A stretch of DNA of 64,000 nucleotides. Source: Laetmonice hystrix (taxonomy: Eukaryota). Positions within the stretch are counted from its first letter, which is position 1. Every line of letters begins with the position of its first letter. The stretch covers positions 29,886,001 through 29,950,000 of the forward strand of contig OZ249436.1 in NCBI GenBank assembly GCA_965235115.1, in the 5' to 3' direction. The position numbers and the translations under genes are program-made. This document shows, in pieces, positions 3,474-54,128 of the stretch. The notes under the pieces are model-generated. The model saw only the letters and a list, made by a program, of their open reading frames with translations. It made no database searches and was not told the origin of the DNA.

Positions 3474-4397
3474 TTGTTTGAACTGAGAACTCGGTATTGG
3501 ATTAGCCATGCACGATCGTTATTTTGCGTCATTATGGCGTTATACTCGTGCTTTTCATTCTTAAGGAGTATGTTGCTTATAATTTTGTATAAGTTCTTTA
3601 TTAATATTATGTTGTCCTTAAAATGTTCAACTTTGCGCCCCGGGAGAATGTCGGAACCCATTCCTTTACTCCCAGTGTATCATTTGGCCGCTAGGTGCTA
3701 GTCTGTTATATCCCGCTAGGCGGCGTTTTTGTCCGATAGTTTTGCCATTAAAAGCTCTAAACTGGAAGCGGTGAGCACGTTGCCGGACAACTCAACAATC
3801 GGATGTGTTTGCCTTCTTTTCTAACGTTGGAGTGGACATAAACAATTATGGCTCTGTCTCAAATCTTTCAAGAGTTACAGCCAGGAATCTTCCAAATGGC
3901 CTAACTTTAAAACTTGCAGGTCAAGTAGTTCAGCGAAAATAGGTCAAATCCTTAGAAATAATGGTGCCAAACGAAAGATCATATCACTTCCTATTTGTGT
4001 ACAATAATAAACATGGCCCTTTAACAGAAGCATCTTCGAGTTATAGCCATAGATACCTAAACTGGGCACTGTTCAAAATTTCAATGTCACGTAACTCCGC
4101 GAAAATAGGTCAAATCGCTTATCCTTGGATAACTATTGAGAAGCTCTTGTCAGAGAGTCCTTCTGCCAAATATTGTCAAGTTTTATCAAAAAATGAAGAA
4201 GAAGTAGGGATGTAACCGATTTACGACCTAGGACCCAGTTCTCCTTAAGGTAGGGGGATGGGATAATAAGAAATCAGCCAATCAAAAGCGTCAACATAAA
4301 AAAAGATGTTAAAAAAGAAGGCAAAGGCTTCTAAACCTCATTCAAAGACGAGACACCGTACAGTACACATCGGGAGAGTCAAGCAATTGTGAACACA

Positions 4398-5516
4398 ATG
4401 GCTGATCTTGGACATGATGCAAGTGGATCTCTTTTTAACTATGTAAAACATGACGATACCATTAGCGATATCAACTGGGTGGTATACAGACCTGTGGGAC
4501 AGCTGAATTCTGGAGGAGCATTAGAATTCAACGTTTCTGGAAACAGTGCTCAGTACATCGATTTAAAGAATACCCGTTTGAGGGTCACCTTCAGAATCCT
4601 CCAAGGAAATGACCAGGGATTGCCATCACCAAACCCTACCGGTACCAACACTGAAACCCCTCCTCTGGCCAAGGTAGCACCGATTAACCTCATAGGTCAA
4701 TCCCTCTGGAATCAGGTGTCGTTGAGCCTGCAACAAGTGAACGTGTCTACATCCATCGGAGGCCAATATACCTAAAAGGCCTATTTTGACACCCTACTCG
4801 GTTCAACTTACACGGGCTCCACATCCATACTCTAAAGTCAGCTGTTTGCCAAAGATACTTCATCAAACCCAGACCCTATCGACGGTACGAATTCAGGCCT
4901 TATCTGGTAACGTATGTTTACGGACGAAAGCGGGCTGGTGACTGTGGAGGGTCCCCTTCATTTGGGAATCTGCCAACTATCGCGTTATCTTATTAACGGG
5001 TTCAAGCTAACTTCAAGTTCTGGCCGAATACCGACGCGTTTCGACTGATGAGTCCCAATCCCGATGCTGACTTTAAAGTGGACATTACTGATGCAGTGTT
5101 GAGAGTGCGACAAGTAGAGATGAACCCCCAAGTCATGATCGCCCATTCAGAAGCGTTACAGCAATCAAATGCAAAATACTTCTTTGAACGGACTGAAATG
5201 AGTTCGTATGCCATTGCAAAGGGACAATACTCTGCTACTTTCGAAGACATGTTTCAGTCCTATGTCCCAAATAAGGTCGTTTTGGGTCTTGTGTCCTCAG
5301 AAGCATTAATTGGAAAATACAATAAAAACCCCCTTTATTTCGACCATTATGATTGGAACTTTGTGGGGCTGTACGTCAACGGAAAGGCCACGCCATTCGA
5401 ACCCCTAACTCTGAACTACAAAGAAAAAGACTACCTGCCGGCCTACATGACTCTGTTTGGGGACAACTACGAGAACGACTCTGGAAGTATCATAAACAGA
5501 CTGGACTATCCTAAAG
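4398..5516 (+). pseudogene. Polinton/Maverick (adintovirus-like) double-jelly-roll major capsid protein pseudogene, copy A, 3'-truncated
   Basis: Motifs WVVYRPV..L...ALEFNVSGNSAQYIDLKNTRL, APINLIGQSLWNQV, Y.YKAYFDTLL, PNKVVLGLVS..A..G.YNKNP.YFDHYD and YVNG..P..P, typical of the F54H12.2-like/hexon family. In-frame stops at about 4773, 4833 and 4908, and a frameshift at about 5000. Confidence 0.8.
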
Positions 5517-5654
5517 GATCCTTTAGAGCAGGAGGATACCTTTATGGTAAGTGGACTTTCGATTCGATGTGTATAAAGTAGCCCGTTTAAAGTAACCACA
5601 TTAACAAATGGCGACATCAACGGTTAAAAACTGACAGTGTCTTTTCTTCTGTAA

Positions 5655-6165
5655 AGCCCCAGTCACATCTAGTCGTACGAATTTTGGATCGCACGATAGG
5701 CAAGGGTAATCGGGGATCGTGAGGTGTCGGGGGCATGTCGTGGAATTGCTCTACGATTATGAGATAGCGGTCACACACTAAAGATTAGTTTGCGACCATA
5801 TTGTCATCCGTAGCACAAATGCTCATAGGATTTCTCGCAGGAATTATCCAGAGAAAGCGTGCGATTAGCTAAGATTACCTATGACTGTCAAGGAACAATC
5901 GTATGAAGGGTCAGGTTTACTCGTGCGATAGTCGTGGGAATAACTGTGCAATAGCAACTAGTCGCAGGACAAGTTGTGTGATGGTCTTGTGATGACTGTG
6001 TCACTGTGTCACTAGCCACGATAAGGCACGACCACGTAAAGAACGTATAAGAACGTAAAAAAATCGTAGACATGTTCAAAATCGTAGACTGGATTTTGAA
6101 CATGTTCAAAATCCGCGCCACGACAAATTTCACCTCCCGACCTCTCACGATCACGATCGGCCTTT
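5655..6165. mobile_element. PIF/Harbinger-like MITE between capsid and polymerase (right end degraded; copy at about 43145-43735)
   Basis: Begins TAA|agccccagtcacatctagtcg, the same terminus style as other AGCCCC MITEs in the window. Central ttttgaacatgttcaaaa palindrome. Copy B ends ...ctagtgtgact. Confidence 0.6.
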
Positions 6166-9148
6166 AAATAGCCGGGTGACGATGCAGATCACCTGATATG
6201 TATAGACGATGCGTCGGCACACGAGCTGGACTTTGTAAGTATTTCTTTCGTGCTGAATGATGGGGTATGGGGGATTGAAGTAGAAGGGTTTGTGTGAATT
6301 TGTGCTAAACGGACAAGGCAGTAATGTGCCGTTATTTTTAACAGGACGTTGAGGTTGTCAACCTACGCGTGCCGACGCGTGGCGAGTCCAACTCGTGTGC
6401 CGCTGCTGATGAGGCCCATCTGCCCCCCAGAAAACGTAGACGATTTGTGAAGTACAACATGTATTATCCCCCGGCACCAGCTGACAGTGATGACCCCAGC
6501 CAGGCGGTCGCAGCCCGACACCACCACCACCACCACCACCACCACCACCATTCTATACCCTCCGACAACACCACCAGAGAACATTCATGAACTCTGGAGC
6601 GACGGACATGACCTTTGAAATACGTTTTCATCCAGACGTCTTTGGAACACAACTCTCAGATTTCTTATTACGTTTGGGAGATATGTTTACTGAGGATTTG
6701 TCCCAAGTGACGGCTGGATTAGAAGACGATGACTTAGGTCGTGTCGTCATACATCACCTTCCCTGGCGACTCCTATCGTCGTATCCCTGCCTCCTCTCCA
6801 GCATTTAACGGCTCAAGCGATCTTGGAAACTATTCAGGCCTTTCTCAATAGCAACGAAGGACTCGTCCTTGACGCCAACTTTAAAATAGACGTAGGTACC
6901 ATTCGCCTTGTTCGAGGAGCAGCTAGTGACACACCCATCACAAAATTATCTGGACCTGGTAACTCTGTACACATCAAAAACTCTTTAATAGAAATTGTTA
7001 ATGAAGACAATATCTGCATGTCGCTATCCATAGCTGTGTGCTGGGCTGTCACTGTGTGTCGAACGCTGAATGGAACGAGGCTACCTTTGGCGAGGCGGGG
7101 GATAGATTATCTCTCGCCTTGAGGTTGAAAATGGTATCAAAATGGCTGTATGTTAATATCCGAACCAAAAGCAGAAAAGAACAGAAAAACTTGGCAGCAA
7201 AACTATGTGATCTTGCAGGCGTGAGTCCTGACGTTCCTGCCACCTTAAATGATATTCCAAAGTTTGAGGCTCTGTTGGGAGTAGGCCTACAAAATTCTTT
7301 GCGTGTACCCATAAGGAAATATCGGGTCCTTTACTATGTGGAGATCATCTCGGACATTTCCATGCTATCGGTAGGATCAAAGGCATATTTAACTGTAGTT
7401 ATTTTTGTGATTCGTGTTTAAAATCCTACTCTAACAAAGGGAAACATGCCTGCGATCAGTACTGCATCGTATGCAAGTCCGAGTGTCCCCCCTCTGCTGA
7501 ACCGATGTCTTGTTTTTGGTGTCACATGACTTGCCGCAGTATGAGGTGCTTTATCAAACATAAGGAAACTCGCCATGGCATTGATGGGTCTTCACAGTGT
7601 GACAGGTATTACAGATGTACATCCTGTTATACTGTGATTGACACCGACAAACGTAGAGTAGAGAAACATCGGTGTGGTGAATGGATATGTCAGACGTGCG
7701 ACCATTATGTTGTAGGATCGCATCATTGTTATCAGCGTCCTATTCCCCTAAAACAGATAGATACCTTTAAATACATGTTTTTTGATTTTGAGGCAACCCA
7801 ATATGTTAGAACCGAGTGTTCTGAGGGATATGCCGTCAAACGTTGTTCTACTTGTACAGAGAAACCTTGTATCAAATGTAAAAGATGTATTCATTGTAAC
7901 GATCCCTTCTGCGGTGTATATACCCATATTCCTAACTATGTAGTAAGTCAAAAAGTATGTCAAGACTGTGTTGATAGTCTGATTTGCAACAAATGTAACT
8001 GTTGTGGGGATAGATGTTCCTCCTGCAACAAGTGGAATTCAAAAGACAAATGTTATGCTACCCCTCCTTGTGAAGATTGTGGTGATAGACAGTGTGTATT
8101 TGAATTTGACAACACCGTAGGTCAGTTTTATGAATATCTCTTTGATACTCAACACAAATATACAACTGTTTTGGCTCATAACCTTCGTGTTATGACGGTT
8201 TCTTCATTCTTCAGTATTTGTTTGATCAATCTATGTTTCCTGATCACATTATATATTCAGGTTCAAAAATTATGTAATGCCTGTTGGAGGTGGTCTGTCT
8301 ATTCGCCTCATTGACACCTTAAATTTCTTCCCTGTCAAATTAGCTGCTTTACCTAAAGCATTTGGTTTGACGGAGTTGAAGAAAGGGTGGTTCCCTCACT
8401 TTTTTAATACAGTAGACAACCAAAACTATATCAGCCCCTTTCCTGAACCTCAGTTTTATGGACACGACATGATGTCGTGTGAGGAGCGCACCAAGTCTTT
8501 GACTTGTCATGCGGGTCAAACACACACCTTCAATTTCAGAAAAGAAATAAAAGCCTATTGTGTGTCTGATGTCACCATACTGAGAGAAGCCTGTATGCAT
8601 TTTCGTCAGTTGATGCTCAATGTCACGGGTAAAAAACGTGAGGAGGAGAATGAGGATCAGGAACCGGCAACAGTACTTTACGGCATTGATCCGTTCAGAT
8701 ACGTCACCATCGCCAGTGTATGTATGGGAGTATTGAAAGGTAAATTATTTTATGAACATGTGGAGATTCAAGCTAAACATAAGAAAACTGGTGTCGAAAA
8801 GACATGCCGCAGGATTTGTAAGGAGGACAGTTGCGTGTATCTTTTGGACAATGTTGAATTAACATCTGAACAATTCGATGAGGATTGGGAATATGTTCTC
8901 GAATCCACCATTTTAAAATCAAATATAGCTCAAGTGGCTATGGTGTCGATCAGTACAGTGCCGAATCCATCTGTTCGCTTGAATGGTTGAATCACCATCA
9001 CAACCTGTCGATTCAACATGCTTTAAACAGGAAAGAACACCGCATACCTGGGTCAAAATATAAATTGGACGGTTTTGACAGAGTGACGAACACGGCTTAT
9101 GAGTTTTATGGCTGCATATTTCATGGATGCCCACAATGTTTCCCCGAC

Positions 9149-9298
9149 CGCCACCTGGTGGTTGTTCATGTATCCGATAGGGGGCGCGACCTCTGCGTCT
9201 CGGTCTCCTGGCGGGATATCGACCTGTTGTACGATTATTCCTCGGCATTAAAAGTTGTCCAGTACTTGTACAGGAGTACACACACAATCTGGTTGTCG
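9149..9298 (+). repeat. 5' LTR (150 bp)
   Basis: cgccacctgg...tggttgtcg; one mismatch against the 3' LTR by manual comparison. Confidence 0.92.
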
Positions 9299-9309
9299 TG
9301 GTGGCAGCG
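9299..9309 (+). promoter_or_regulatory. Primer-binding site, complementary to a tRNA 3' end (tRNA-Leu type)
   Basis: TGGTGGCAGCG directly after the 5' LTR is the complement of ...CGCTGCCACCA. Confidence 0.75.
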
Positions 9310-12300
9310 AGAAGAAACCCACCTGCTCCAGAAGAGCTTCAACAAATAGAAGTTTCGTGGTATACTCACCCGTACTGAGCCATAACTGCTGGACTGTTTT
9401 TCTGCCATCTTCACAGCACATGTGGCATGTGCTAAGCCTGAGGTTTGTGACCGGCATATTATCGCCCACCCTCGTGTTCACACGTCTTACGAACTTTGAA
9501 GAATAGCATTCTGCAGTATTACGTTGTGTGGTCTGCCACTATGGCGTTAAGCAGAGCCCCCAAACAGTGGCAGCTTACTAAGAATGAGACAATTGTCAGC
9601 TTTGAAAGTTGGAAGCAGAATCTCCTGTACATACTTTCCTTGGACATCAATTTTGCTCCATATCTACGGGAGGGTGCTTCATGGCAGAAGAAAACTGCAG
9701 CAAATCCTAACAGAGGATATACCGACGATACGGCACCCATCCCTGAGGCGAACAGGCTCACCACTGCAGTCAAGGTTCAACGTCTGGAACTTTTGTTAGG
9801 GCAAATCGCCAACTTCTGTACCGTGATATCCAGAAACAGTATTATCAAAGGATCTACATGTTTGAAAGATATCTGGCAGCTGATTCGCCTGCATTATGGG
9901 TTCCAGTCCACGGGAGGGCACTTTCTGGACCTTGCTGATATCCTTCTCCTGGTTGATGAACGCCCAGAAGATTTATACCAACGCCTAATGGCTTTTTTTG
10001 AGGATAATCTCATGACTGTGGATTCCAATCTGACTCACCATGGTGCTCCTGTCACTGCTGATGAGGATTTGACACCTACACTTGAAAACACTATAGTGGT
10101 CTTGTGGCTCCAGCTAATAAACCCGGCCCTGCCCCTCTTGGTGAAACAGAAATATGGTGCTGGACTTCGCAATAAGTCCATAGCCTCCCTGAAACCTGAG
10201 ATCTCACAAGCTCTCCCGTCACTTCTGGAGGAGCTACGTAGTATTGAGGATACTCGTGCAATGCGCACTGCCATATCATCACACGCTATTGGCAGTAAGG
10301 TGCTTAGTCAGAGGAGTCGTTCCCAGGCTCAGCCACGCCGCAAGTTTTGTTGTCTGTGTAAGACGGCTGGTCGACCAAGTTTCGCATCTCATAACCTCAG
10401 TGAATGTAGATACCTGCCTGAGGCTGACAGGAAGTATATGGGCAGGTCTCGTCTCGTTGGGGATGTTGAAGATAGTTATGATGAGTTTGATGACCAGTGC
10501 GATATTCAACAAGAGGACACACTTGAAACTGTTGCTTCAAATGCACTCATGGACAATTTGTCAGTACGCAGAGTTGATGTCGTACAATCCCCATACATAA
10601 GTGCGTACTACCATCAACAACCAGTACGTCTCACCTTAGATACGGGAGCAACAACCAACATGATATGTGATTCCTTCGCCAAGTCCGTCTCCATGCCTGT
10701 TACACCAGCTTCTCAGATGGCCCGTCAGGCTGATGGGATCACTCCATTAGAGGTAGTAGGTGAGGTTCATTGCGCACTGACTCGAGGCCTGCACACCTTC
10801 CGGCTTGACGCCCTGGTAGTCAAGCAATTGGATGTTGATATCTTGGCCGGTAACCCCTTCTTAGTGGCAACGACATAGCTACTCATCCTGCCAAACGTCA
10901 CGTAATCATCAAGGGTACAGAAGTAGTACAGTATGGGTCTCAGCCTTCAAAAGAGGGTTCAGTGAGACGCACACAGGCTCACATCCTGAGATCACCGCCT
11001 CGACAAACTGTCTTGCTACCTGGTGAGTACATTGAGCTACGAACACCGACGGACACTGATCCTGATGCCGAATGGGCGCTCGAGCCCAGATGTGATAGCC
11101 CCTCGAACAGAAATTCACCATCTGATCGACTGTGGCCCTCCGTGCAGGAAGTAAAATCCGTTGATCATTCAGTGCGATTAACTAATGCTACGACCGAGCT
11201 TATAGTTCTCAGGAAGAACGAACACATTTGCCAAGTGCGCCCTGTGACAGTACCCTCCACAGACTCCCTCCCACAGCTTCCTGCTGAAGGTCGGGACTGG
11301 AAAACACCATCTCGTAGTACACAGTCAGAGCCATCTAGACTATGCTCCTCTCAGGTAACTGTAGACCCAGATGGATGCCTTACGCCAGCCTTACGTGCCA
11401 AGTTTGAGGCCGTGAATCGTCAGTATGATAGGGTGTTTGGGCCTGAGATCTCTAAGTACAATGGTGCAAGCGGCAAGCTAGAAGCTGTTGTTAACATGGG
11501 GCCTACATTACCTCCACAGCGGAAAGGCAGGCTGCCGCACTACAATAGAGACCAGCTGCTGGAATTACAGCACCAGTTTGACGAGCTTGAAGCCGCTGGA
11601 GTATTTGCTAAACCTGAGGAGGTTCATGTTACAGTTGAGTATACATGACACATGTCCTTCTTGGTGAAGAAACCTAATGGTGGACATAGACTGGTCACAT
11701 CCTTCGGTGAGGTCGGACAGTACAGCAAACCCCAGCCATCGCTCATGCCAAGTGTGGATCAGGTCTTGAGGGACATAGCTCGCTGGAAATACATTGTCGT
11801 GACTGATCTTAGGAAGTCGTTTTATCAAATCTCCCTGGCACATGAATCAATGAAGTATTGTGGTGTGGTTACTCCATTTAAGGGAATACGCGTGTACACT
11901 AGGTCCGCCATGGGCATGCCTGGCTCTGAGACATGCCTTGAGGAGTTGATGTGCAGAGTTGTGGGACATTTGATCGAGGATGGCTGTTGCTCTAAGATTG
12001 CAGATGACCTGTATACTGGTGGTGACACGCCTGAGGAGTTGTTGGCGAACTGGTCTAGAGTTCTGGCTGCATTACATCATAACAACCTTGGGCTGAATGC
12101 AGGTAAAACCATTGTGTGCCCACTGTCCGTCAATGTCTTAGGTTGGGTATGGTCAGGGGGCACCATCCGAGCGAGTACTCACAGGCTTACTGCACTTGCC
12201 GCTGTCCAACCCCCTCCGACAGTTCAGGGCCTTAGGTCCTTCATAGGAGCATACAAAGTACTCAGCCGGGTGCTGCGAGGATATGCCAACTTGCTCCATC

Positions 12301-15300
12301 CACTCGAACAGGCCACAGCTGGAAAAGTCTCTAAGGACAAGGTAATTTGGACGGATGAGCTGAGGTCGGCATTCTGCAAAGTGCAAGCAAGTCTCAAGGA
12401 CAACAAAGTGATCACCATGCCAAGACCCAATGATCATCTGTGGATCGTAACGGATGCCTCAGTGAGGGAACACGGTATCGCAGCCACCCTGTATGTGTTA
12501 CGTGGTGGCAAACTCCTATTGGCTGGGTTTTTCAATGCTAAACTGAAGAAACACCAAGTTACATGGCTACCATGTGAGGTTGAGGCTCTCTGCATCGCGA
12601 CACCTATCAAACACTTCGCACCTTACATTATACAGTCGAGGAACACTACTCAAGTCCTTACTGATAGCAGACCGTGCGTACAGGCATACTCTAAGCTTCA
12701 GCGAGGAGATTTCTCTGCCAGTGCCAGAGTCACCACATTTCTCTCTATCACCAGTAGATACCACACCACTGTCAGGCACATTGCTGGAGTTGCAAATCTC
12801 CCCTCTGACTATACCAGTAGGCATCCACCAACATGTCCGGAGCAACAGTGCCAGGTGTGTAAGTTTGTGCATGAGGTGGAGGATTCTGCTGTCAGGCAGT
12901 TGACTGTTCAGGATGTGATGCAGGGATCAGGTAAAATGCCCTTCTTGAGTCGCGTGGCCTGGCAGGCTACACAGCAAGAGTGCAGCGACCTGCGCCGCAC
13001 ACATGCCCACCTATCTCAGGGCACCCGTCCCACCAAGAAGGCCACAAGGATTGCAGATGTTAAGAGATACCTGAGAGATGTCATGATTGCCGGTGATGGT
13101 TTGCTTGTAGTGAGGTCTGAGCTACCATTTCTGCCGGCTAGGGAGAGGATTGTTGTACCACGGGCTGTCCTCCATGGCTTACTCACAGCCCTGCACCTCA
13201 GACTTACACACCCTTCTCAGTACCAAATGAGGCAGGTGTTCAACAGATACTTTTACGCACTGGATGTAGATGGTGCTTTGCAAGATGTCTGCTCCTCATG
13301 CCATCATTGTGTGTCCTTAAAGTCTGTGCCACGCCATTTGCAGCCTCAGTCAACCTGTGCACCTCCTGACAGAATGGGGGCATCCTTCAGCCTCGATGTC
13401 ATGCGTCGGTATAAGCAGTATGTTCTCATGCTCAGGGAAACTGTGTCCTCCTACTCATTAACCGCTCTTATTGAGAACGAACGTCGTGATACCTTGAGGG
13501 ATGCCATGATAGTGCTGCTCGCCGATGCTCGCACACTAGGTGATGGCTCAGTCACCATCCGTGTGGACTCCGCTCCTGGCCTTGCGTCACTCGTCTGTGA
13601 CCCGTTGCTGAGTCAACATAACATTGTTGTTGAGACTGGAAGGGTGAAAAACATAAACAAGAACCCTGTGGCTGAGCATGCCATTCAGGAGCTTGGTCAG
13701 GAATGCCTTCACCTGTCGCCGGAGGGTACCCCTCTTTCAAAAGTGACCCTGGCCCTCGCCACTGCCAATATGAATGCCAGGATAAGGGCAGGGGGCCTGT
13801 CCGCCCGTGAGATATGGACCCAAAGGGATCAGATGTCTGGCGAGCAGTTACCCATTGATGACCGCCAACTTATCCTCAGACAGCATTTTGCGAGGACCCA
13901 GAACCATGCTTTCAGTGCGAAATGTAAGTCTCATGGTAAAGGGCCTGCAGTCTTGCCAGCTATTGCGGTTGGGGATCTTGTATATCTCACCATGGACAGG
14001 GACAAAACCAAAGCGCGGGATAGGTACATGGTTACAAGTATCAATGATGACTTCTGTCAGGTTCGCAAGTTCTCCAATAGTGGGGCGGATAATCAAACCA
14101 ATTGTGCATTTTGTGATAAAAGCATGAGAATTTTCACAGAGTAACCTGGGACCATACTCTTTAATTTAAGATAGGGAGGCATCCTGGATCCTGCCTGTGA
14201 GGCCTGTTTTAGCGTTTTGTTGCCTAGCAACAGTAACATGCTTAGCAACTGGCCTCATATGGTTCCAAGGAGATAAAGAAACACACCTACCCACACTATA
14301 GTCATATCATGGGTTAACATGGTAACATCAATTATTCCATAATACCAGCCCGTTGCCTAGCAACAGATCTTGGGTGTGAGACCTCCTTAGCAACGGGCTA
14401 CCCCATCCTGATAAATGTAGCTTTCAGTAGAGAAATCATAACAAGACGATGTCCAGTGTCTTACTGTTCATTTACATACATGTGTAGTCTTACAGTTGCC
14501 TAGCAACGGAGCTTGAATGACTCAGTTGGGGGGGTTTTCTTCATATGGAGAGGCATCCAGAATCCTCCTCATATGAAGCTGGGCACCAGTTAGGAAAATT
14601 ACATAACTATGCGACTTGGCATCAGCTTTGCTTGGCTTCATATAGCTGCAAGGAGAAAAAGAAACATACCTACCCACACTAACGTCGTATCACCGGTTAA
14701 CCTGGTAACATTAGTCATTCCATAACAGCAGCCCGTTGCCTAGCAACAGTAACATGCTTAGCAACTGGCCTCATATGGTTCCAAGGAGAAAAAGAAACAC
14801 ACCTACCCACACTAAAGTCACATCATGGGTTAACATGATAACATCAATTATTCCATAACACCAGCCCGTTGCCTAGCAACTGACCTTGGGTCTGAGACTT
14901 CCTTAGCAACGGGCTACCCCAACCTAATAAATGTAGCTTTGAGCAGAAAAATCAGACAAAAACGATGTCCAGTGCAACTGTAGTCATGTGTAATCTTAGT
15001 TACCTAGCAACGGAGCTGGATAACGCAGCTCTGTTTTTTTAGGTAAGGAGGCATTAGGAACTCCTTATATGAGGCTAGGCACCAATTAGGGAAATTGTGT
15101 AATGCACTAATAGCTTTGCAAAAATCTATGTCTGAAATTCTGCGCCCAGTTGTAGGCAAATGTATCAGCAACAAGCAGCAAAGTGACTCCGACCTGTAAT
15201 TAAAGTGCGAGGGAGTGACGAAAAGATATCTTCCAACTACAGGACAAGAACAAAATACATGAATATTTTAATATCTAACAAGCTTGTAAAGCTTATAACC

Positions 15301-15399
15301 CCCACTAAGAACTATGGATTCTTGAAGAAACGATGATCTTTGAGGGGCAAAGAAAAATTGTTAAATGAAACTTCGTATGTACTTCGTCTGCATCTTAGT

Positions 15400-16340
15400 A
15401 ACTATGCAGTTATGTACAGTTTGATAGCGTTATGCGATATGAAGTGTTTTGTAGATCCAGGCAATTGCAAATGCAATTGGAGGTTGACCCTCATGTCTTC
15501 TGTCACCAAGAACGAAGTCCTGAAAATGTCAGAGTTATTGCTTCGAATTTCTTCATAACCAAGATGGCCACCAAGCAACCATTTTTTAATATATGTTTGA
15601 CCTGTGTCCTCCGTAGACTGTCCCTGGTTATTATGCAATGTTTCATGCAAGATTAGATGTTGTTATCTTCAACTGGTTTGGCGGTACAGGCTATTAAAAT
15701 ATGCATGACCTTGATTGCCCTTGCAAGATCGCTCAAGCTCATGGGAAATGGCGCCATATGAAACTTCATATACCACTTCCTATCTGTCAATAATAGTCTT
15801 GCACCGTTTTCGAGATATGAGCCCAAACAGTGTTATTGGGGGGAGTAAAAATATCAATGTGGCCGCAATGTCGCCATATTTGCTCTGATCTGGGAATACA
15901 TTGCCATATACATTGCCCCTCATATGCACCTCCTTTCCGCCAAATTTGAAAGAAATCGGTATCGTTTTGTCTGAGTTATTGCTCCAAATGTGATTATATT
16001 CAAGATGGCCACCACGCAGCCATTTTGACTGATGTCAAAAATATCTTTGACCTGCCTCATCCTTTGACTGTCCCTGATTATTAGGTAATGTTTCATGCAA
16101 GATTATGTCGTTATCTTTAACTGTTTTGAAGATCCAGGCTATTGAAAATATGCATGACCTTGATTGACATTTCAAGGTCGCTCAAGGTCATGGAAAATGG
16201 CGCTAAATGAAACTTCATATATGACTTTCTATCTATCAATAGTAGTAACTATTGCGTCAAGCTTGCGCCGTTTTCGAGATATAAGCCAAAGCAGTGTCAT
16301 TGTGGGGGTCAAGAAACAAATATGGCCGCCGGAGGGCGAA
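15400..16340 (+). repeat. Diverged direct repeat with a unit of about 445 bp, inside the Academ element
   Basis: aagatggccacca at about 15561 and 16002; aaaatatgcatgaccttgattg at about 15696 and 16146. Confidence 0.65.
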
Positions 16341-16410
16341 TTATAAGCCCCCCGTTCTGGGGGCTAAAGAAAGCCCTGAAATTACACCAATTACCATGAA
16401 TGATGATGGT

Positions 16411-17005
16411 ATCAGGGCACTCTCCCCTGGACATTTGCCCCGGATATCTGCCCCCAGACATTAGCCCCCGTAGGACCTTTGCCTCCCTATAGGACATGAG
16501 CCCCCCCCCCCCGACATTCACCCGCCAGACATTAGCCCCCGTAGGACTTTTGCCCTCCTAGGACATCTGCCCTCCCAGACATTCACCCCCCAGATATTCA
16601 CCCCTCCCCCCCGACATTAGCCCCTGTAGAACTTTTGGCCCTCTAGGACATCTGCCCCCCAGACATTCACCCCCGGAGATTGCATCCATGGAACTAGGAT
16701 ATTCCCCACACACCTGTGCCTGCGCGGAGGGGTTAGGACAGGGTTAGAGTAGAGTTAGGGTTAGGGTTAGGGTTAGGTTAGGGTCCTAGGGGGGCAGAAG
16801 TACTCCGGGGGTTAATGTATGGGGGCAGATTTCCTAGAGGGCAGAAGTCCTAGGGGGTTAATGTATGGGGGCAGATTTCCTAGATGAGCAGAAGTCCTAC
16901 GGGGGCTAATGTCCGGGAGGGGTGAATGTCTGGGGGGGGGGGGGGCAGATGTCCTAGAGGGGTAGGAGTTCTAGGGGGGCAAATGTCCGGGGGAGAATTG
17001 TCCCC
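16411..17005. mobile_element. Fold-back MITE with C-rich/G-rich minisatellite arms and an internal (TTAGGG)n tract
   Basis: Ends gggcactctcccctggacatttgcccc / ggggcaaatgtccgggggagaattgtccc; ttagggttagggttaggg at about 16755-16783. Confidence 0.65.
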
Positions 17006-17590
17006 TTGCATTTGCATGCCCTCTTGCATTTGCATAAGATGCGGCATCCCTTTTTGCAGCCACAGGAAAGCAGCTCCTGGTGCTTTTGCTTCTTCAGGAA
17101 GGGTTGTCCAGTTTGGATGGTACAGTCCGTCTCCATTCTTCATCCATCCCCACGGCCAGGTAATAGGCGAAGAAAGCTCAGACCTGTGCGGAATCCTGTG
17201 TCTGACCCCATGTGCCCAGCTTGTTAGGCAGCTCTCCTGACGTGTTGCATAGTTAGATGGAATTGCTGCTGGAGTGGTGATATCTTCTTTGGGAACATTC
17301 TTTTATGGTTTCATTGACATAAGTAAAGTGCAGCTGTACATGAGTATGACAAATCTAGCTGGTACTCATACTAGACACAGGATTCTACACCTGAGCTTCC
17401 GTCGCCTCTTACCTTGGGATGGATGAAGAGTGGAGAGTTAGACGGACTGCACCATCCAAACTGGACAACACTTCCTGAAGAAGCAAAAGCATGAGCTACT
17501 TTGCTGTGGCCCGTATCTATGCAAATGCAAGAGGGCTGCTCTGTAATGCACTTCCCTGTCTTTATGTGGAGGAGAGTGCTCAGAGAACTG
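17006..17590. pseudogene. Two inverted remnants of an Academ transposase 3' end (minus about 17006-17290; plus about 17372-17590)
   Basis: Both encode ...WGWMK.G...HPNWTTLPEEAKA...C.CKRA... in opposite orientations. Confidence 0.75.
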
Positions 17591-18068
17591 ACTATGTCTA
17601 TGATGTCCTTCTTTCTCATAAGAAAGTACTCTATCATAAATTATGACGTGAATTTTTCATACTCAGAAGTAAAATACATACTTACACAGTCGTGCCCAAA
17701 GCATACTAATCACAGAATAAATTTATACTTCTGCAGCAGCAGATGACATGATAAACAATACATTAAAAGACGCATTTAGAGTGTTTTCTAATTCCTTTGA
17801 AACAATTATTTGGTTCTGTATGATTATACGTTTCTGTATTGACTGTGTCTCAAAATACTATTCCTAAGTCTTTTCGCCACCTCCTTGCACTTTAAATCAA
17901 TAGTCGGGGTCACCCTGTAGCTTGTGATACCAAGCAGTTATGTCATTGCCCTAACTGGTGCCTAGCCTAAAAAAAAAGAGTTCCTGGTGCCTCTTTATCT
18001 AAAAAAACACAGCTGCGTCATCTAAGCTCCGTTGCTAGGCAATAGTAAGATATGAATGTGCACAGTGA

Positions 18069-18524
18069 CAGTGGCGGATCCGGGGGGGGGGGGTCAGGGG
18101 GTCCGCACCCCCTCGCCTCAAGTGCCCTTTTCTCTCCCCACAAGTGCCTTTTTTATTTTACGAAAGATTTTTAAAATTTAAATGTCCAATTGTCTAGGCT
18201 TATTATACCCTTAAAGGCTGGTCTATATCGCGTATTTGGCACTGTCATTTTAATTTTTTTCTGGGGGAGGACCCCCAGACCCCCCCCCCCCTATAGATGG
18301 CTTCGTGCCTTCGGTGCTCGCATCATGGAGGACACCCCCTTCACCAAATTCCTGGATCCGCCCCTGACTGTCCCCACACTCAGAAATTTCTAACTACGGC
18401 TTGTTGATATGTGCATAGGCCTATATGCCACTTTTATTTGACTGTCTAGGCTACTCACTGGGGGAGGGGGGATTGAGAAAGTGCCATTTTTCCATAGCCC
18501 CCCCCCCCCGTCTTAAAAATCCTG
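18069..18524. mobile_element. CAGTGGCGGATCC-type MITE(s) interrupting the right Academ arm
   Basis: TIR cagtggcggatcc (18069) / ggatccgcccctg (about 18366). The block is absent from the left arm; AGTGA flanks both sides of the whole block. Confidence 0.6.
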
Positions 18525-20404
18525 AGTGACTGAGACACTGGACATCGTTTTAGTCTGGTTTCTCTGCTTAAAGCTACATTTATTAGGTTGGGGTAGCCCG
18601 TTGCTAAGGAAGTCTCAGACCCAAGATCTGTTGCTAGGCAACGGGCTGGTGTTATGGAATAATTGATGTTACCATGTTAACCCATGATATGACTTTAGTG
18701 TGGGTAGGTGTGTTTCTTTTTCTCCTTGGAACCATATGAGGCCAGTTGCTAAGCATGTTACTGTTGCTAGGCAACGGGCTGCTGTTATGGAATGACTAAT
18801 GTTACCAGGTTAACCGGTGATACGACGTTAGTGTGGGTAGGTGTGTTTCTTTTTCTCCTTGCAGCCATATGAAGCCAAGCAAAGCTGATACAAAGTCGCG
18901 TAGTTATGTCATTTTCCTAACTGGTGCCTAGCTTCATATAAGGAGGATTCCTGATGCCTCTCTATATGAAGAAAACCCCCCAACTGAGTCATTCAAGCTC
19001 TGTTGCTAGGCAACAGTAAGACTACACATGTATGTAAATGAACAGTAAGACACTGGACATCGTCTTGTTATGATTTCTCTACTGAAAGCTACATTTATCA
19101 GGATGGGGTAGCCCGTTGCTAAGGAGGTCTCACACCCAAGATCTGTTGCTAGGCAACGGGCTGGTATTATGGAATAATTGATGTTACCATGTTAACCCAT
19201 GATATGACTATAGTGTGGGTAGGTGTGTTTCTTTATCTCCTTGGAACCATATGAGGCCAGTTGCTAAGCATGTTACTGTTGCTAGGCAACAAAACGCTAA
19301 AACAGGCCTCACAGGCAGAATCCAGGATGCCTCCCTATCTTAAATTAAAGAGTATGGTCCCAGGTTACTCTGTGAAAATTCTCATGCTTTTATCACAAAA
19401 TGCACAATTGGTCTGTATATTTGGTCTTAACTGCCCCACTACAAGTCACAGTTCCGCTCAAGGTCATATGATGTGAAGCTCACTGAGTGTTTCCCAGTGA
19501 TACCCAACTACCTTGCACAGTCTCCTCGAGGTCCCATCCGCGGATTGGATGATCAGACGTGCACAGACTGTGTGGCAGATCAAGATGTTGAAGTGGCGAC
19601 GCATCCACCTGTGCTGTTAGAGTCCAGCCAGCAGGAGCATGTGGTCAGTCAGGGCCCTGAAAACCCCCACCCTTGCCTCCAGAGATAGTTCGACCCCCGG
19701 CCGACCCGGGCTCTACATCACATAGAGACCACATGGATTGTTCTGTTATTGTTGATAGTGGCACTGATCTGAATAATACTGTGGTGGAGACTGATGTTGA
19801 TGTACTGGATACTGTCAACACTACCGACAACGGGCCTACTGCAGCCCCAATGCCCAGTCGACATTCACTCAGACAGAGGGTTGCTCCTACCTGGCAGCGA
19901 TCAGGGGACTGGGTATTACAGTAATTTGTGTGAGGCCATGATACACACCTATTTACACTATATTATGTTATTAGCTGTGCACTTAGTGTGGCCTGATGCC
20001 ACTTGATACCCATTTGTAGTTATAGGTTGCCATGCTCATTCATGATTAAGGGCATATAGTAACCTTTATTGACTTAGACTGACTTTGCTCTCAATGGAGC
20101 CACGCAGGTGTTCTTCAGTTTCAACCTTTATATGAGACAGTGACTAAATACACTCGTAGCCTATCTGGGTTCCTCGTATAGTAAACCCACTTCAGTGGGA
20201 TTATCTAGTGTTCTAGTGTAACATCACTAATTAGTTTTCATTCAATTTATAGAATGTATCTTTTCTGTCATTGATCAAAGTGTAGTTTCGGCACCATCTG
20301 TTTACGGTGTCTAGTACAGTTGTTTTACTTTTCTTGTTTAGATACATACATATACCTTTGATTTCCTCGCGTGTAGGGGGGGATGTATGTTAGGGGGGAT
20401 AGAC

Positions 20405-20575
20405 GGTAGGGGGAAAAGGGGGCTACGCCACCTGGTGGTTGTTCATGTATCCGATAGGGGGCGCGACCTCTGCGTCTCGGTCTCCTGGCGGGATATCGAC
20501 CTGTTGTACGATTATTCCTCGGCATTAAAAGTTGTCCAGTACTTGTACAGGAGTACCCACACAATCTGGTTGTCG
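20405..20575 (+). repeat. Polypurine tract (about 20405-20422) plus 3' LTR (20426-20575)
   Basis: ggtagggggaaaagggggcta directly precedes the second LTR copy. Confidence 0.9.
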
Positions 20576-22298
20576 GACCGTCAAATGAAACACCCGCTCA
20601 CTCGACAATCCTACGAGGAGCTATACACACAAACTATGAAACGTGAGAGTGATTTGAAAGGTCGAGGATACAATGTGGTGTCCATCTGGGAATGTGATTT
20701 TCACCGTGAAATGAAAGAAAACTCGGTCTTGTCCGACTTTGTCAAAACTTTAGACATTCAGTTTCGTCTGAACCCGAGGGATTCCCTCTTTGGAGGCCGA
20801 ACAGAGGCGACACGGTTAATGTACTAAACACGTGACGACGAACACATTAAATATGTTGACTTTACGAGTTTATATCCGTATGTCAACAAGTACTGTGAAT
20901 ACCCTGTCGGTCACCCTGAAATTATTACACAACCTGGAAATGATTTAAATTCCTATTTCGGCATGGCCGAGATTAAAATCCTACCCCCACGGAACTTATA
21001 CCATCCCGTCCTCCCTTATCGATCTGTTCAGACGATGACCGGTGTCTGTTGGGTACGTGGTGTACTCTGGAAATACAAAAAGCAGCTGAAAAAGGCTATG
21101 TCATTGTAAAAGCCTACGAGGTATATCACTGGCATTAGCATTCCATCGTAAAAAGTCCTGGCTTAAGATCCCTTACCAAGTTGTGCCTCAACTCGTTCTG
21201 GGGTAAGTTTGGGCAGCGTCTCAACATGCCCCAATCCGAGTTCATACACGGTTCACAACCAGAACGTTTTTTTCCTTGTTATCAGATCCAACTGTGACTG
21301 TAATTGACTTCATGATTGTAAACGAAAATGTAATCCATTTGAAATGCGAATGGATATAATGGTCGTGTAAAGCGGGCTATCCACATATAAGCGATTTTAC
21401 CCCAAAACGACGATATAGCGTCAGTCGCCCTGGTGGATATTCGAAGCGCCAATGAAAGGATGCACTCTCCGCCGCAAGATGTCACTGCTGTCTGTCTGCT
21501 ACGCGCAATGTCTCATGGGAGATTGGAAAGGATGGTCAAGACGTTTCAACGGTTGACCTTCAAACAAAGAAGTTTCAGTGGTCTATATCATGATATATGT
21601 TCTTGACACATGGCCCTATTATTTACCATTGGGCCTTTCTGAAAATCAACGTGATCAAACGAAATTGTTTTTACATCTTATGTGACCTTTTAGACTTGTA
21701 CCAAGTAGGCTACCAATGCTTAATTTTTCAGTAGTCAGGCTGATAGATCCATTTCAACGTCAGATTGGCCTATATTTTGATTATTGTGTTTAACTTCTGA
21801 TACACTCGACTGTATACATTAAAGGGCCCTCCCAAAAAAAATATGTCTGCATTGGGGTTCTCCGATAATATCCTCTACCTTTCTGTGTGGTCTTGGCATA
21901 AATAAATAGCCTAAATTCTAAAAGTCGCCAAATCTTATTTCAGCCCGAAAATAACCTACTTAGCTTCCGAGACCCCGGGAGTTGTTTTTCATATTCCTAT
22001 GAATATTGACAGCTTTATTCTCGGGAAAATCACAGCTTTTTTTAAATTCTAGGACTTCATTCGTTGCGCACAGTTACCAAAGTTGTGTTCTGCACCACAA
22101 CAACATAACGATCCGTTGAAACGGTGGCTTTCATTGCGTTTGCGTGCACTCGACTAGTTTTTGTAATGTTTTCCACCATTAGGGGGTTATTTCACAGCTT
22201 GTTCACTTGTTCTTATCTCTCTGTTCTTATCTCAAGGCGCTTTAATTTACCATTGGACCTTTCTGGGAATCAAAATTTAATGAAATTACGGTATCTAA

Positions 22299-23585
22299 AG
22301 CCCCAGTCCCACCAAAGCCGAATTAGCTACGACGTGTCACGATCTGATAAATCGTGTAGAATCGGGAAAGGTCCTAACTCGGTCGTAGAGTAGTCTTGAT
22401 AGATCCTCATAGGTCGCGACAATTTTGAACTGTTCAAAACAATCGGCATTGGTCGGGAAAAAGCTCAGATCGGGGCTATATCGTAGGTCAAACGTTGCTC
22501 AGTCGGGAATATAGTCGGGGAACAATCGGGATAGTTCGTTGTTCAGTCCTGGTTTATCGTAGGACAATTGCCAGAAAATTAAGCCCCAGTCCCACCAAAG
22601 CCGATTGTACTACGTTCCATGCCGTTCTATCAAGATCTAAAATTTATTTTAAGTCGTGATGAATCGTGATGAAATAATGACAACCCGAAGACCTAGCTAC
22701 GAATTGTCACGTTCAACGGCGACTGGGCAACGGTTTTCCAAAGATCTCTCAACGATCACGCTGCGTGCTATCATGTTCTATCTCGACATCCCCCCGACCT
22801 TGCCGACCTATGCAGATTGAGCTACGTCCAATCAAGAACCCGACCCGATGTTTGACCAACGATGTAGCAACGTTCTATGCCGTCTGAGCCCCAGCCGAGC
22901 TACGACCTGTCCCGATGACGTCAGGGCTAGATCTAGGAAATGTCTGGCGATTGTCCTACGATCAACCAGGACTGAACAACGAACTATTCCGATTGTCCCA
23001 CGACTATTCCCGACTGAGCAACGTTTGACCTACGGTATATCCCCGATTTGAGCTTTTTTTTCCGACCAATGCCGATTGTTTTGAACAGTTTAAAATTGTC
23101 GGGGTGCAATCGTGGCCTATCCTGACCTATGAGGATCTATCAAGACTACTGCACGACCGAGTTAGGACCTTTCCCGATTCTACACGATTTATCAGATCGT
23201 GACACGTCGTAGCTATCTCGGCTTTGGTGGGACTAGGGCTTTAGCCCTGATCTAGACCTGATGTCATCGGGACAGGTCGTAGCTCGGCTGGGGCACGGCA
23301 TAGAACGTTGCTACATCGTTTGTCAATCTTGGTATAGGTCGCCATACATCGGGCCGAGATCTTGATAGGTCGAAGCTCAATCTGCATAGGTCGGCAGTGA
23401 ACGTTGCTTTAGTCGTTGCGCTGTCGGGAAGGTCGGGCCGATGTCGGGATAGAACATGATAGATTCGTAGCTAGGTCTTCGGGTTTTCTTGATTTCATCA
23501 CGATTCATGACGACTTAAACTAAATTTCAGATCTTGATAGAACGGCATAGAACGTCGTACAATCGGCTTTGGTGGGACTGGGGCT
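22299..23585. mobile_element. PIF/Harbinger MITE (TSD TAA) containing an inverted copy of the same family at 22582-23240 (TSD TTA)
   Basis: TIR agccccagtcccaccaaagccg at all four ends. Empty site ggtatcTAAtgggcc in copy B at about 49303. Confidence 0.9.
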
Positions 23586-24419
23586 TAATGGGCCTTTTTT
23601 TAGACCGATATTGCACACCCGCCATCTTGATCATTGTCATTGCATGTTTCAGGTAACAATTACATTTGAATACCATCAAAAGTGGAATTTCGAAATATAT
23701 AGATCTGGGCCTATTATGTTTGTTCTGGCATAGATCTATTCGTAAATGCTCCCTCATTCATTCAACGACAGTTGCACCTGCTGTAGCAATAAAAGCCATG
23801 ATCTTAGATCTACAATGGTGTTACTTTGACTTGTATAGATCCATATATTACTTAACCATTTCATTGTTACTGTCCTCAATTGAGGACACCACTTCTTGCA
23901 CAGCGTCCAAAATGAAACAGCCACCCTTACAAGTTGTTATTAAATAACAACTTGTAAGGGTGGCTAAATTTTAGTCAATAAACTTTTTCTAAATTGGTGC
24001 ATGTTAAACTGCGGATAATGCGTGGTATAACTATTATCATTTTAGTTCTCGACTTGGTCACGACATCAATGATAAAACATCGTAATAACATCGCCTTGGT
24101 GGATAGCAGCATCGTGTTGGTGGATAGATCTAGGCCTACGCAAAATCTAGCATCGTTGGGTATGAACGCTGACCAACCGACGGGGACCATCACGTGGGTT
24201 GACGTTCAAAGGGCGTCGGTTTTGCATCGTTTACACCAGAAATGCACGCTAATTTTTATGAATCGCGCCTGCAGTCAGTGCTGTAATCTGATTGGTGTAC
24301 GGGGTACCGAACTAGGTGGAAAACAGTTTTATCCATTCATCAAGGGGGGTGGGGGGGGGGGGTGCAGATGCACTTTTTTGTTTTGGCTGGGATCCCTGTT
24401 TATTTGAAACTATATTTTC

Positions 24420-25315
24420 TTGCAAATGTGCCTTTTCAGAGTGCAGAGGATGGCTTGTACATCCAGACAAAACAGCTGTTGCCAAATCTCCTCCTCTGGT
24501 TGTTGAAGGAGTGCCTGTGACAACAACAAACGAGTTGCTAAAATGCATCGAGTGGTACTCGACATTTGTGTTTAGTATAAAATATTATGAACGTCTGAGG
24601 AAAATGTGAAACTTCATACAAAATTTCTTCTTCGAGGTGAAAGATAAAGATGTTACAAAGTCGATGCGGACACTATACCATTTTGCTTAAGAAGTAAATA
24701 TCAAGGCATTCCTGCACAGACGATTGCGGGAAAGGGAATAATTAGTTACCATGATTTTATGATTAATCGATACTGTAGAAGGACCTGTTCCAAGTTGTGA
24801 AAATGGTTTGATATTTCAAACTAAGGGTTGCAAGGATTGTGTGAACAATAGATACTGAAGAAGGACCTGTTCCAAGTGGTGAAAATGGTTTGATATTTCA
24901 AACTAAGGGTTGCAATGATTGTGTGAACAATAGATACTGGAGAATGACCTATTTCAAGTGGTGAAAATGGTTTGATATTTCAAACTAAGGGTTGCAATGA
25001 TTGTGTGAACAATAGATACTGGAGAAGGACCTGTTCCAAGTGGTGAAAATGGTTTGATATTTCAAACTAGAGGTTACAATGAGTTCTTGAATGAAAGTTC
25101 GTTCACAAGAAAGGTATATCAGACGGGATGGAAAAGTCTAAAGCTTAGTCAGATTCTCAGTCAGTTTGACTCGGGGTTACAATGATTGTAGTCATAAAAG
25201 ATTAGTCATAAAAGCCTCAGAAAGTTCGGAGAAAAAGGCACAGTCATGCTGACCAAGCTCAGATTAGAACACCAGTCGTTTTGACTAACTTTCTACCCCA
25301 GCATTTCTTTCTGTG
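24420..25315 (+). mobile_element. 3' remnant of an EnSpm/CACTA-like element with a decayed accessory ORF tail
   Basis: Ends ...ccagcatttctttctgtg|TA (reverse complement of a CACAG terminus). Degraded coding tail VVEGVPV...FVFSIKY..L...FIQNFFFEVKD resembles C-termini of CMC-associated accessory proteins. Confidence 0.5.
24769..25085 (+). repeat. 82-bp minisatellite, about 4 copies
   Basis: Unit starts gatactg at 24769, 24851, 24933 and 25015. Confidence 0.9.
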
Positions 25316-25317
25316 TA

Positions 25318-30204: not shown

Positions 30205-30385
30205 TGTGCAGGGATGGCTCAGCGGTAAAGTGTAGGAATTCCAGGCCATGGGTATGACATAGTTCTTTACTACTATGGTCCTTTATTTACACCAAGACTC
30301 TGCAAATAATGTGTGAACGGATGGCTTAGTGGTAGAGTCTAGGAATTTTATGCAAAGGGTATGAGGTTCGAATACCACCCAAAAT
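30205..30385 (+). mobile_element. Tandem tRNA-derived SINE-like heads (paralog at about 58055-58232)
   Basis: A-box-like TGGCTCAGCGG and TGGCTTAGTGG; B-box-like GGTTCGAATAC. No complete cloverleaf. Confidence 0.5.
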
Positions 30386-41042: not shown

Positions 41043-41073
<31 letters not shown>

Positions 41074-54120: not shown

Positions 54121-54128
54121 CACGGCCA

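What the first reader, a model, noticed from the sequence alone, without database searches (positions are those of the whole stretch)
4398..21345. Endogenous Polinton/adintovirus-like remnant reduced to capsid + polymerase and present twice
Seen: a major-capsid-like gene directly upstream of a pPolB gene on the same strand, repeated at 41888-48342. No integrase, ATPase, protease, penton or terminal inverted repeats are recognisable. Known: Polintons/Mavericks encode pPolB plus a double-jelly-roll capsid and normally these other genes too. Inference: this is an internally deleted proviral relic that was already dead (shared stops, shared frameshift, shared truncation points) before being copied with a host gene. 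The two copies retain complementary pieces, so a more complete ancestral sequence can be rebuilt.
Basis: partly seen in the sequence, partly recalled or inferred. Interest (0 to 1): 0.7.

Follow-up and report, generated by a model that had tools for sequence, protein, structure and literature searches.

The report
Dead Polinton fragment in host duplication
A broken leftover of a virus-like jumping element (a Polinton), reduced to a cut-short capsid gene and a cut-short DNA polymerase gene and split by other transposons, lies twice in this animal DNA beside a host enzyme gene, likely because it was already dead when the host segment was duplicated; such fossils are common, though its polymerase gene may carry two small introns at its start.

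Summary
The finding is real but ordinary. Both copies hold a Polinton capsid pseudogene: its 441-aa relative folds as a double jelly roll, and the last ~66 aa are missing here. Both hold a protein-primed polymerase pseudogene missing its last ~180 aa, including catalytic motif C. No integrase, ATPase, protease, penton or terminal repeats were found. Most breaks are shared, and differences between copies look neutral (45 amino-acid-changing to 14 silent), so the element likely died before a ~32-kb segment with a methyltransferase gene was duplicated.

Corrections: only ~5.0 of the 16.9 kb is viral; 11.4 kb is a Gypsy retrotransposon with a nested element. Capsid and polymerase are not natural neighbours: they meet at a break (5517-5519), and 0 of 10 related loci show this order. 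The copies complement each other only at small lesions. Two haplotypes placed in tandem are not excluded (~0.2).

One lead: two perfect splice donors and in-frame acceptors in front of the polymerase gene suggest a spliced leader; no RNA was available to test it. The scan had noted spliced Polinton polymerases and scrambled dead copies in other genomes.

The parts
3862..36046 (.). Copy A of the duplicated host segment
   Evidence: Self-BLAST; 14,922 of 32,185 bp align to copy B, the rest is private to this copy
41340..64000 (.). Copy B of the duplicated segment (runs off the window)
3838..4267 (.). High-copy host repeat that bounds the viral remnant on the left
   Evidence: Summed contig depth 1e4-6e4 against ~300-900 on the capsid gene; related to the 146-bp array at 40370-40940
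4270..4391 (+). Likely basic C-terminal tail of the small ORF that precedes the capsid gene in related elements (inferred)
   Evidence: K/R-rich frame ending just before the capsid ATG; basic tails in most of 10 related loci, K/R 0.17-0.62; not detected by the profile
4398..5518 (+). Major capsid pseudogene, copy A: 3 stops, 1 frameshift near 5000, last ~66 aa missing
   Evidence: 46% and 53% identity to P0004 residues 3-375 of 441; P0004 model is a double jelly roll
5517..5519 (.). Break that joins the cut capsid gene to DNA upstream of the polymerase gene; shared by both copies
   Evidence: table 8: a ~87%-identical contig leaves at 5519, a ~90%-identical contig enters at 5517, and a near-identical contig (5356-5603) spans the join
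5544..6344 (+). Predicted spliced leader of the polymerase gene: ATG 5544-5546, donor 5547, acceptor 6170-6171, 63-nt exon 6172-6234, donor 6235, acceptor 6343-6344 (untested)
   Evidence: Sequence; donors in both copies; post hoc chance of two donors 0.003; no RNA data
5652..6163 (.). 512-bp high-copy insert (MITE-like), shared by A and B, absent from another family copy
   Evidence: Depth 5e3-1.3e4 and a contig joining 5651 to 6164 in 3 of 3 runs
6345..9148 (+). pPolB pseudogene, copy A, 5' part (terminal-protein, OTU, Cys-rich, exonuclease and Vsr-like regions), several frameshifts
   Evidence: 50-78% identity in tiles to P0279 residues 12-1031; PF03175 E 7.8e-10; domains from the relative's model
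9149..20575 (+). Gypsy-type LTR retrotransposon, copy A only; LTRs 9149-9298 and 20426-20575 differ at 1 of 150 bases
   Evidence: aspartyl protease, RVT_1, RNase H, integrase zinc finger; empty site in B at 47572
14094..19415 (.). Element with 881-bp inverted ends nested in the retrotransposon
   Evidence: 97.3% inverted repeat
20576..21350 (+). pPolB pseudogene, copy A, 3' part: motifs A and B present, two internal deletions, cut before motif C
   Evidence: P0279 residues 1028-1366 of 1544; motif C lies at 1407 in the relative; PF03175 E 2.7e-8
41888..43008 (+). Major capsid pseudogene, copy B: 3 stops (2 shared with A), same frameshift and same cut end
43913..48347 (+). pPolB pseudogene, copy B, same 3' deletions and cut end
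   Evidence: PF03175 E 7.1e-12
44712..45503 (.). 792-bp insert in copy B only, solo-LTR-like (TG...CA ends, 4-bp target repeat)
   Evidence: absent from the independent sample, joint 44707-45504 in 3 of 3 runs
31394..36190 (+). Host five-exon SAM-dependent methyltransferase-like gene, copy A (resembles METTL27/WBSCR27; name recalled, not tested)
   Evidence: Exon frames and GT-AG ends; Methyltransf_11 E 4.2e-4 on one exon
59263..64000 (+). Host methyltransferase-like gene, copy B (last exon runs off the window)
   Evidence: 7 changed codons of 180 compared, no stop

Best explanation
This is the broken remains of a Polinton (Maverick) element, a cut capsid gene joined at a break to a cut protein-primed DNA polymerase gene, which likely was already dead when a ~32-kb host segment carrying it and a methyltransferase gene was duplicated in tandem. 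Order of events (inferred): (1) an element with a terminal-protein/OTU/exonuclease/Vsr/palm polymerase inserted; (2) a rearrangement cut the capsid gene, removed the protease gene that normally follows it and brought the polymerase's upstream region next to it; host repeats and deletions removed both ends and the other genes; stops, frameshifts and a 512-bp insert accumulated; (3) the host segment was duplicated, possibly by unequal crossing-over in the repeat family at its left edge; (4) the copies drifted neutrally, A gaining a Gypsy element with a nested element, B a solo-LTR-like insert. Shown: gene identities, breaks, which are shared, the insertions. As it stands it can make neither a whole capsid protein nor a polymerase with motif C, and it lacks the ends needed to move.
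For: Capsid: 3,597 relatives at E<=0.001; window covers P0004 residues 3-375 of 441; P0004 model pLDDT 92.7 matches PBCV-1, iridovirus, mavirus and Sputnik capsids at E 1e-15 to 9e-14. Polymerase: PF03175; tiles along P0279 to residue 1366 of 1544; the relative's N-terminal model matches OTU proteases (Z 9.4, rmsd 4.4, 140 aligned) and the PolIV little finger (Z 6.9, rmsd 3.0, 98 aligned). One family: contig lengths shared between capsid and polymerase clusters, 2 of 5, 4 of 7 and 4 of 8. Dead first: 2 stops, 1 frameshift and the cut end shared in the capsid gene; at least 3 frameshifts, 2 deletions, 1 stop and the cut end shared in the polymerase; 45 amino-acid-changing, 14 silent and 4 stop differences in 1,040 codons. 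Break real: contigs from an independent sample span it, and diverged contigs part from the window there. No N between the copies.
Against: No close relative (over 50% capsid identity) was seen in its DNA context, so the original gene order and the kind of rearrangement are unknown. Contig-length matching is indirect and several contigs are over 1 Mb. Trees left both window pieces in no well-supported group. The independent sample shows one unbranched version over 441-522 bp of the capsid gene, A-like in one stretch and B-like in another, which also fits alleles of one locus. All three runs are one sample and may be related to the assembly's source.
Confidence: 0.72

Rival explanations
1. Same dead Polinton fragment, but present once: A and B are two haplotypes of one locus placed in tandem by the assembly.
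For: Divergence of 0.9-3.5%, uneven along the segment, with many private insertions, is what alleles of a very polymorphic invertebrate can show (own knowledge). The independent sample lacks B's insert and A's Gypsy element and has one mosaic capsid version.
Against: The window has no N or gap between the copies. In the runs, near-identical capsid and host-exon contigs have depth ~255-290 (X1, X2) while many other contigs have 55-130, which hints at more than one locus; the tool warns that depth is no copy number, so this is weak.
Confidence: 0.18
2. Capsid and polymerase come from two unrelated or separately inserted Polintons that were joined by a deletion at 5517-5519.
For: The genes meet at a break, and the order capsid-then-polymerase is seen in 0 of 10 related loci. 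Six loci with 31-41% capsid relatives carry a polymerase that matches this one only in the Vsr-like region.
Against: The nearest capsid relatives and nearest polymerase relatives fall on contigs of identical length, including 41,395, 104,522 and 115,375 bp; 6 of 21 contigs of 20 kb or more for capsids at least 50% identical to P0004, against 2 of 20 for more distant ones. L037 pairs this polymerase type (50% to P0279) with a related capsid (37% to P0004). Two neighbouring copies of the same family remain possible and are counted under the best explanation.
Confidence: 0.06
3. A reduced, non-autonomous element (capsid + polymerase) that moves with the help of intact Polintons, or a pair kept by the host for a function such as antiviral small RNA.
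For: Two copies exist; the joined form occurs in an independent sample.
Against: No terminal inverted repeats; the second copy came with ~15 kb of flanking host DNA and a host gene; both genes are broken and drift neutrally.
Confidence: 0.04

Closest known systems
Degraded Maverick/Polinton loci of animals (PMC8097293, passages; PMC8502044, abstract, first third of Results and passages)
   Same: Stops, frameshifts, large insertions, no discernible terminal repeats; 96% of 3,511 vertebrate loci are in this state.
   Different: Invertebrate host; capsid lies upstream of the polymerase across a break; copied with a host gene.
Alpha-PolB adintoviruses (OTU + PF03175 class, PMC8502044)
   Same: PF03175 polymerase with an N-terminal OTU-fold domain and a double-jelly-roll capsid.
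   Different: Integrase, ATPase, protease and penton are absent here; the capsid class (Alpha or Beta module) was not resolved.
Vsr-bearing pPolB2 Polintons of molluscs and a marine nematode (10.1101/2023.08.22.554363, passages and section 9)
   Same: A Vsr-like insert in the polymerase; named nearest relatives are from Haliotis, Saccostrea, Magallana, Gigantopelta, Mercenaria, Ruditapes.
   Different: Not compared with that paper's sequences, so pPolB2 membership is untested; this copy is dead.
Polinton pPolB with TP-vOTU-exonuclease-palm layout (PMC11161782, passages and section 6)
   Same: The relative's first two domains match the PolIV little-finger fold and OTU proteases; the window keeps the Cys and His invariant in 29 aligned relatives.
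   Different: Frameshifted and cut before motif C; possible spliced leader, whereas core genes are described as intron-free (PMC8097293; 10.1101/2022.07.12.499685, passages).

Membership tests
Polinton/Maverick (adintovirus) | [quoted passage not shown] | tested here: met
   Through the full-length relative P0004 (46-53% identical over residues 3-375). The window's gene is broken and cut.
Polinton/Maverick (adintovirus) | Protein-primed family B polymerase with terminal-protein and OTU domains | tested here: met
   PF03175; tiling on P0279; domain folds from the relative. Present as a pseudogene without motif C.
Polinton/Maverick (adintovirus) | Retrovirus-like integrase | tested here: not met
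   A profile of 10 related integrases finds only the Pao and Gypsy integrases and one hit at E=1.
Polinton/Maverick (adintovirus) | Packaging ATPase, adenovirus-like protease, penton | tested here: not met
   Profiles of 9, 9 and 10 related ORFs give no hit at E<=1; 205 ORFs from related loci hit only capsid and polymerase. Group labels are mine; ATPase and protease were backed by Pfam in 1-2 loci each, penton in none.
Polinton/Maverick (adintovirus) | Terminal inverted repeats with 6-bp target duplication | tested here: not met
   No inverted pair encloses either copy except short host-repeat matches; AGTAGT-type end motif at chance level, 10 against 6.5 +/- 2.6. So: a fragment derived from a Polinton, not a member as it stands.
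Degraded Polinton fossil | Polinton gene homology with stops, frameshifts, insertions and no terminal repeats | tested here: met
   description in PMC8097293.
Alpha-PolB class (PMC8502044) | OTU domain plus PF03175 match | tested here: met
Vsr-bearing pPolB2 class | Vsr endonuclease domain inside the polymerase | tested here: inconclusive
   3 of 120 listed relatives are named very-short-patch-repair endonuclease; profile hits to three Vsr chains only at E 0.25-0.35.
Vsr-bearing pPolB2 class | Placement in the pPolB2 clade | not tested
   The paper's sequences were not fetched.
Non-autonomous Polinton derivative | Own terminal repeats and copies at unrelated sites | tested here: not met
   No terminal repeats; the second copy shares its flanks. 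The rest of the genome could not be searched.
Gypsy LTR retrotransposon (the insert) | Two LTRs, protease-RT-RNase H-integrase order, target repeat | tested here: met
   the ends are CG...CG rather than TG...CA.

The most novel reading that the evidence does not exclude
This Polinton lineage makes its DNA polymerase from a spliced message: a start-codon-only first exon, a 63-nt second exon and two ~110-nt host-type introns precede the terminal-protein domain, much as adenoviruses splice a tiny leader onto their polymerase (recalled). Core Polinton genes would then not be intron-free, and intron-free searches would mis-call their starts.
Probability: 0.45. Interest if true: 0.45.

Novelty: new member of a known kind. 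Interest (0 to 1): 0.2.

Why it matters
Little as it stands: decayed Polintons are the usual state of these elements, and this one rode along in a host duplication. It gives a clean local order of events (decay, duplication, two later retrotransposon insertions) and shows that the host species carries an undescribed family about 55-69% identical to its nearest database relatives. The one point of wider weight is the possible spliced leader on the polymerase gene: if RNA from an intact relative confirms it, polymerase expression in these elements depends on host splicing, against the usual description of intron-free core genes.

Tried and rejected
No whole genome was held, so other family members could not be searched in the assembly. 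The word-based protein search with the capsid piece found nothing among 352 candidates; the full HMMER search did. PDB sequence searches gave only chance hits for the capsid piece and none for the capsid profile. Pfam has no hit for any capsid piece or for P0004. Viral-contig scans: 0 of 135 and 0 of 2 stretches confirmed, 1 of 56 distant; prokaryote-genome scan with the capsid 0 of 62. The Atlas did not hold the sequence. Trees of 43 capsid and 39 polymerase rows placed the window pieces in no starred group. No RNA holder was listed. Contig depth was examined as a copy-number guide and left as a weak hint. GT(A/G)AGT donors upstream of the polymerase in 7 related loci: 1 of 7 had one, and 5 had under 1 kb of upstream DNA; L041 had one in 1.3 kb: uninformative. 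A search for F54H12.2, the label on named capsid relatives, found no paper; that it denotes the nematode Maverick capsid is recalled. The 31-54-bp inverted matches around copy B (37839-38003 / 48834-48981) were rejected as terminal repeats: short, patchy, and apparently two copies of a host repeat. Literature searches listed no paper on this element or, by title and abstract, on a spliced leader of an animal Polinton polymerase; introner insertions in dinoflagellate elements are reported (PMC12166617, passages). No supplements were read; gene maps in those of PMC8502044 and the pPolB2 preprint could bear on gene order.
Full report
Setting. The window is animal genomic DNA with no N; no whole genome was held. 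Self-comparison shows a direct repeat, 3862-36046 against 41340-64000. Only 14,922 of 32,185 bp of copy A align; the rest is private to one copy. Substitution divergence is 0.9-3.5% over the viral parts, 2.1% over the host-gene block, and up to 10% in one short repeat-rich piece. Both copies hold a five-exon methyltransferase-like host gene with open exons; its likeness to METTL27 is recalled, not tested.

Capsid. The gene starts at 4398 (B 41888). The unbroken piece 4997-5578 finds 3,597 relatives at E<=0.001, mostly 420-440 aa when whole. The window matches the best full-length one, P0004, over residues 3-375 of 441 at 46% and 53%. P0004 folds with pLDDT 92.7 and matches the capsids of PBCV-1, an iridovirus, mavirus and Sputnik at E 1e-15 to 9e-14, TM about 0.5-0.6; the top viral-library hit is a bracovirus protein at 28% identity. 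Named relatives are bivalve proteins labelled F54H12.2-like or hypothetical. PMC4028283 (passages) describes the Polinton PY protein as such a double jelly roll.

Polymerase. Four pieces hit PF03175. The window tiles along P0279 (1,544 aa) from residue 12 to 1366. Exonuclease motifs and polymerase motifs A and B are recognisable; motif C, at 1407 in the relative, is missing from both copies. A model of the relative's residues ahead of the Cys-rich region (pLDDT 89.5) matches OTU proteases (best Z 9.4, rmsd 4.4, 140 aligned) and the PolIV little finger (Z 6.9, rmsd 3.0, 98 aligned, below the tool's confident range); its top viral hits are MELD-virus and adintovirus proteins. This is the TP-vOTU layout of PMC11161782 (passages and section 6) and the Alpha class of PMC8502044. 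A Vsr-like insert is suggested by names and weak hits; Vsr-bearing polymerases of mollusc Polintons are described in 10.1101/2023.08.22.554363.

What fills the interval. About 5,009 of 16,948 bp are viral-derived. A Gypsy element occupies 9149-20575, with 150-bp LTRs differing at one base and protease, RT, RNase H and integrase-zinc-finger hits. An element with 881-bp inverted ends sits inside it. Copy B has the empty site and instead a 792-bp solo-LTR-like insert. A 512-bp high-copy insert at 5652-6163 is shared.

What is missing. Profiles built from 8-10 related ORFs each for integrase, ATPase, protease, penton and the small pre-capsid ORF found only the two retrotransposon integrases and chance-level hits; 205 ORFs of related loci hit only capsid and polymerase. 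No terminal inverted repeat encloses either copy.

One family or two. The closest capsid clusters and closest polymerase clusters share contig lengths: 2 of 5, 4 of 7 and 4 of 8. Among listed hits on contigs of 20 kb or more, 6 of 21 close capsids against 2 of 20 distant ones share a length with a listed polymerase. This is indirect, since the DNA of those contigs could not be read, and the trees did not resolve the window pieces. It favours one family.

The join. In an independent sample (three runs, one sample), a ~87%-identical contig leaves the window sequence at 5519 with 179 unlike letters, and a ~90%-identical contig enters at 5517 from unlike sequence, covers 5517-5651 and continues at 6164; a near-identical contig spans 5356-5603. 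So the capsid gene was cut at a real break and joined to the polymerase's upstream region. Of 43 loci fetched, 10 hold both genes: 7 have the polymerase first on the same strand (L007, L008, L009, L012, L014, L017, L026), 3 have the genes facing (L003, L037, L041), none has the capsid first. Several of these polymerases are assigned by size, position and partial match only, and all these capsids are distant (29-43% to the window piece where compared). A protease-like ORF follows the capsid in 11 loci. A plain deletion would need an order not seen in these loci; an inversion or head-to-tail join fits as well. This stays open.

Dead before the copying. Shared in the capsid gene: two stops, one frameshift, the cut end; each copy has one private stop. 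Shared in the polymerase: at least three frameshifts, two internal deletions, one stop and the cut end; the rest are private small lesions and the two insertions. Across 1,040 collinear viral codons the copies differ by 45 amino-acid-changing, 14 silent and 4 stop changes, close to neutral; the host exons show 4 and 3 in 180 codons, too few to judge. The copies therefore complement each other only at minor lesions; what is lost is lost in both.

Duplicate or haplotype. The sample lacks both private insertions and shows one unbranched capsid version over 441-522 bp, nearer A in one stretch and nearer B in another; 16 of 24 and 8 of 26 checked variants equal B's letter (24 of 40 and 26 of 40 listed rows were checked, those in aligned stretches outside high-copy repeats or the window's B limit). 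This fits alleles, or tandem copies that recombine. The lack of a gap between copies and the depth pattern lean to a real duplication; I put the haplotype reading at about 0.18.

Possible spliced leader. An ATG at 5544-5546 is followed at once by a perfect donor; a pyrimidine tract split from its AG by the 512-bp insert precedes a 63-nt open exon; a second perfect donor at 6235 and an acceptor at 6343-6344 lead in frame into the polymerase's N-terminal homology, which has no in-frame ATG ahead of it. Two such donors in 316 bp have a post hoc chance of 0.003 at the window's rate. Two relatives' frames start with an F-Q pair at nearly the same distance from a conserved His. Against: those relatives have their own ATG three codons later, related loci gave no support, and there is no RNA. 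Core genes are described as intron-free in PMC8097293 and 10.1101/2022.07.12.499685. I noted this; unchecked scan notes on three other genomes later showed the same idea, which is not independent proof.

Verdict. A decayed Polinton fragment carried in a likely host segmental duplication. Degraded copies are the norm (96% of 3,511 vertebrate loci, PMC8097293). It derives from a Polinton but fails four defining features as it stands, so it is filed as a fossil, not an element. Interest 0.2; the spliced-leader case has probability 0.45 and would merit 0.45.

Noticed in passing
window 9149-9298 and 20426-20575: The Gypsy element's LTRs begin and end with CG and are flanked by a 3-bp repeat (or 4-bp if the LTR starts one base later), instead of the usual TG...CA; primer site and purine tract look normal.
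   Followed up: partly
window 801-3838: BEL/Pao retrotransposon remnant (Peptidase_A17, rve, DUF5641), cut at 3838 where other copies continue with different sequence; it marks the left edge of copy A.
   Followed up: partly
window 14094-19415: Element with 881-bp inverted ends holding 133-bp tandem units; two minus-strand fragments (16880-17302, 17371-17640) resemble the Cys-rich C-terminus of a DNA transposase (recalled; no Pfam hit for the one scanned).
   Followed up: no
window 40370-41100, 3838-4267, 54128-54411: Very high-copy repeat family with 146-bp units and AAG microsatellites (summed depth up to 3.6e5); may be Helentron/HINE-like, as a scan note reports for this genome.
   Followed up: no
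window 22295-23589, 25317-27894, 55633-56728: Nested palindromic inserts with long inverted arms, private to one copy each.
   Followed up: no
window 6172-6234: The predicted small exon encodes an LxCxD stretch followed by acidic residues, loosely like the Rb-binding motif of the 'Oncoid' ORFs said to lie upstream of adintovirus polymerases (PMC8502044); could be chance.
   Followed up: no
L037, L039, L041-L043: Polinton contigs sit in records titled as bacterial metagenome-assembled genomes (Bacteroidia, Sedimenticola, Dysgonomonas), probably binning contamination from an animal host.
   Followed up: no
L003:2165-2728, L037:7192-7695: ORFs upstream of the integrase resemble a small TATA-binding protein (recalled motif, not scanned).
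   Followed up: no
window 31790-34603: A contig in 2 of 3 runs joins 31790 to 34603, suggesting a version or paralogue of the host gene with a shorter second intron.
   Followed up: no
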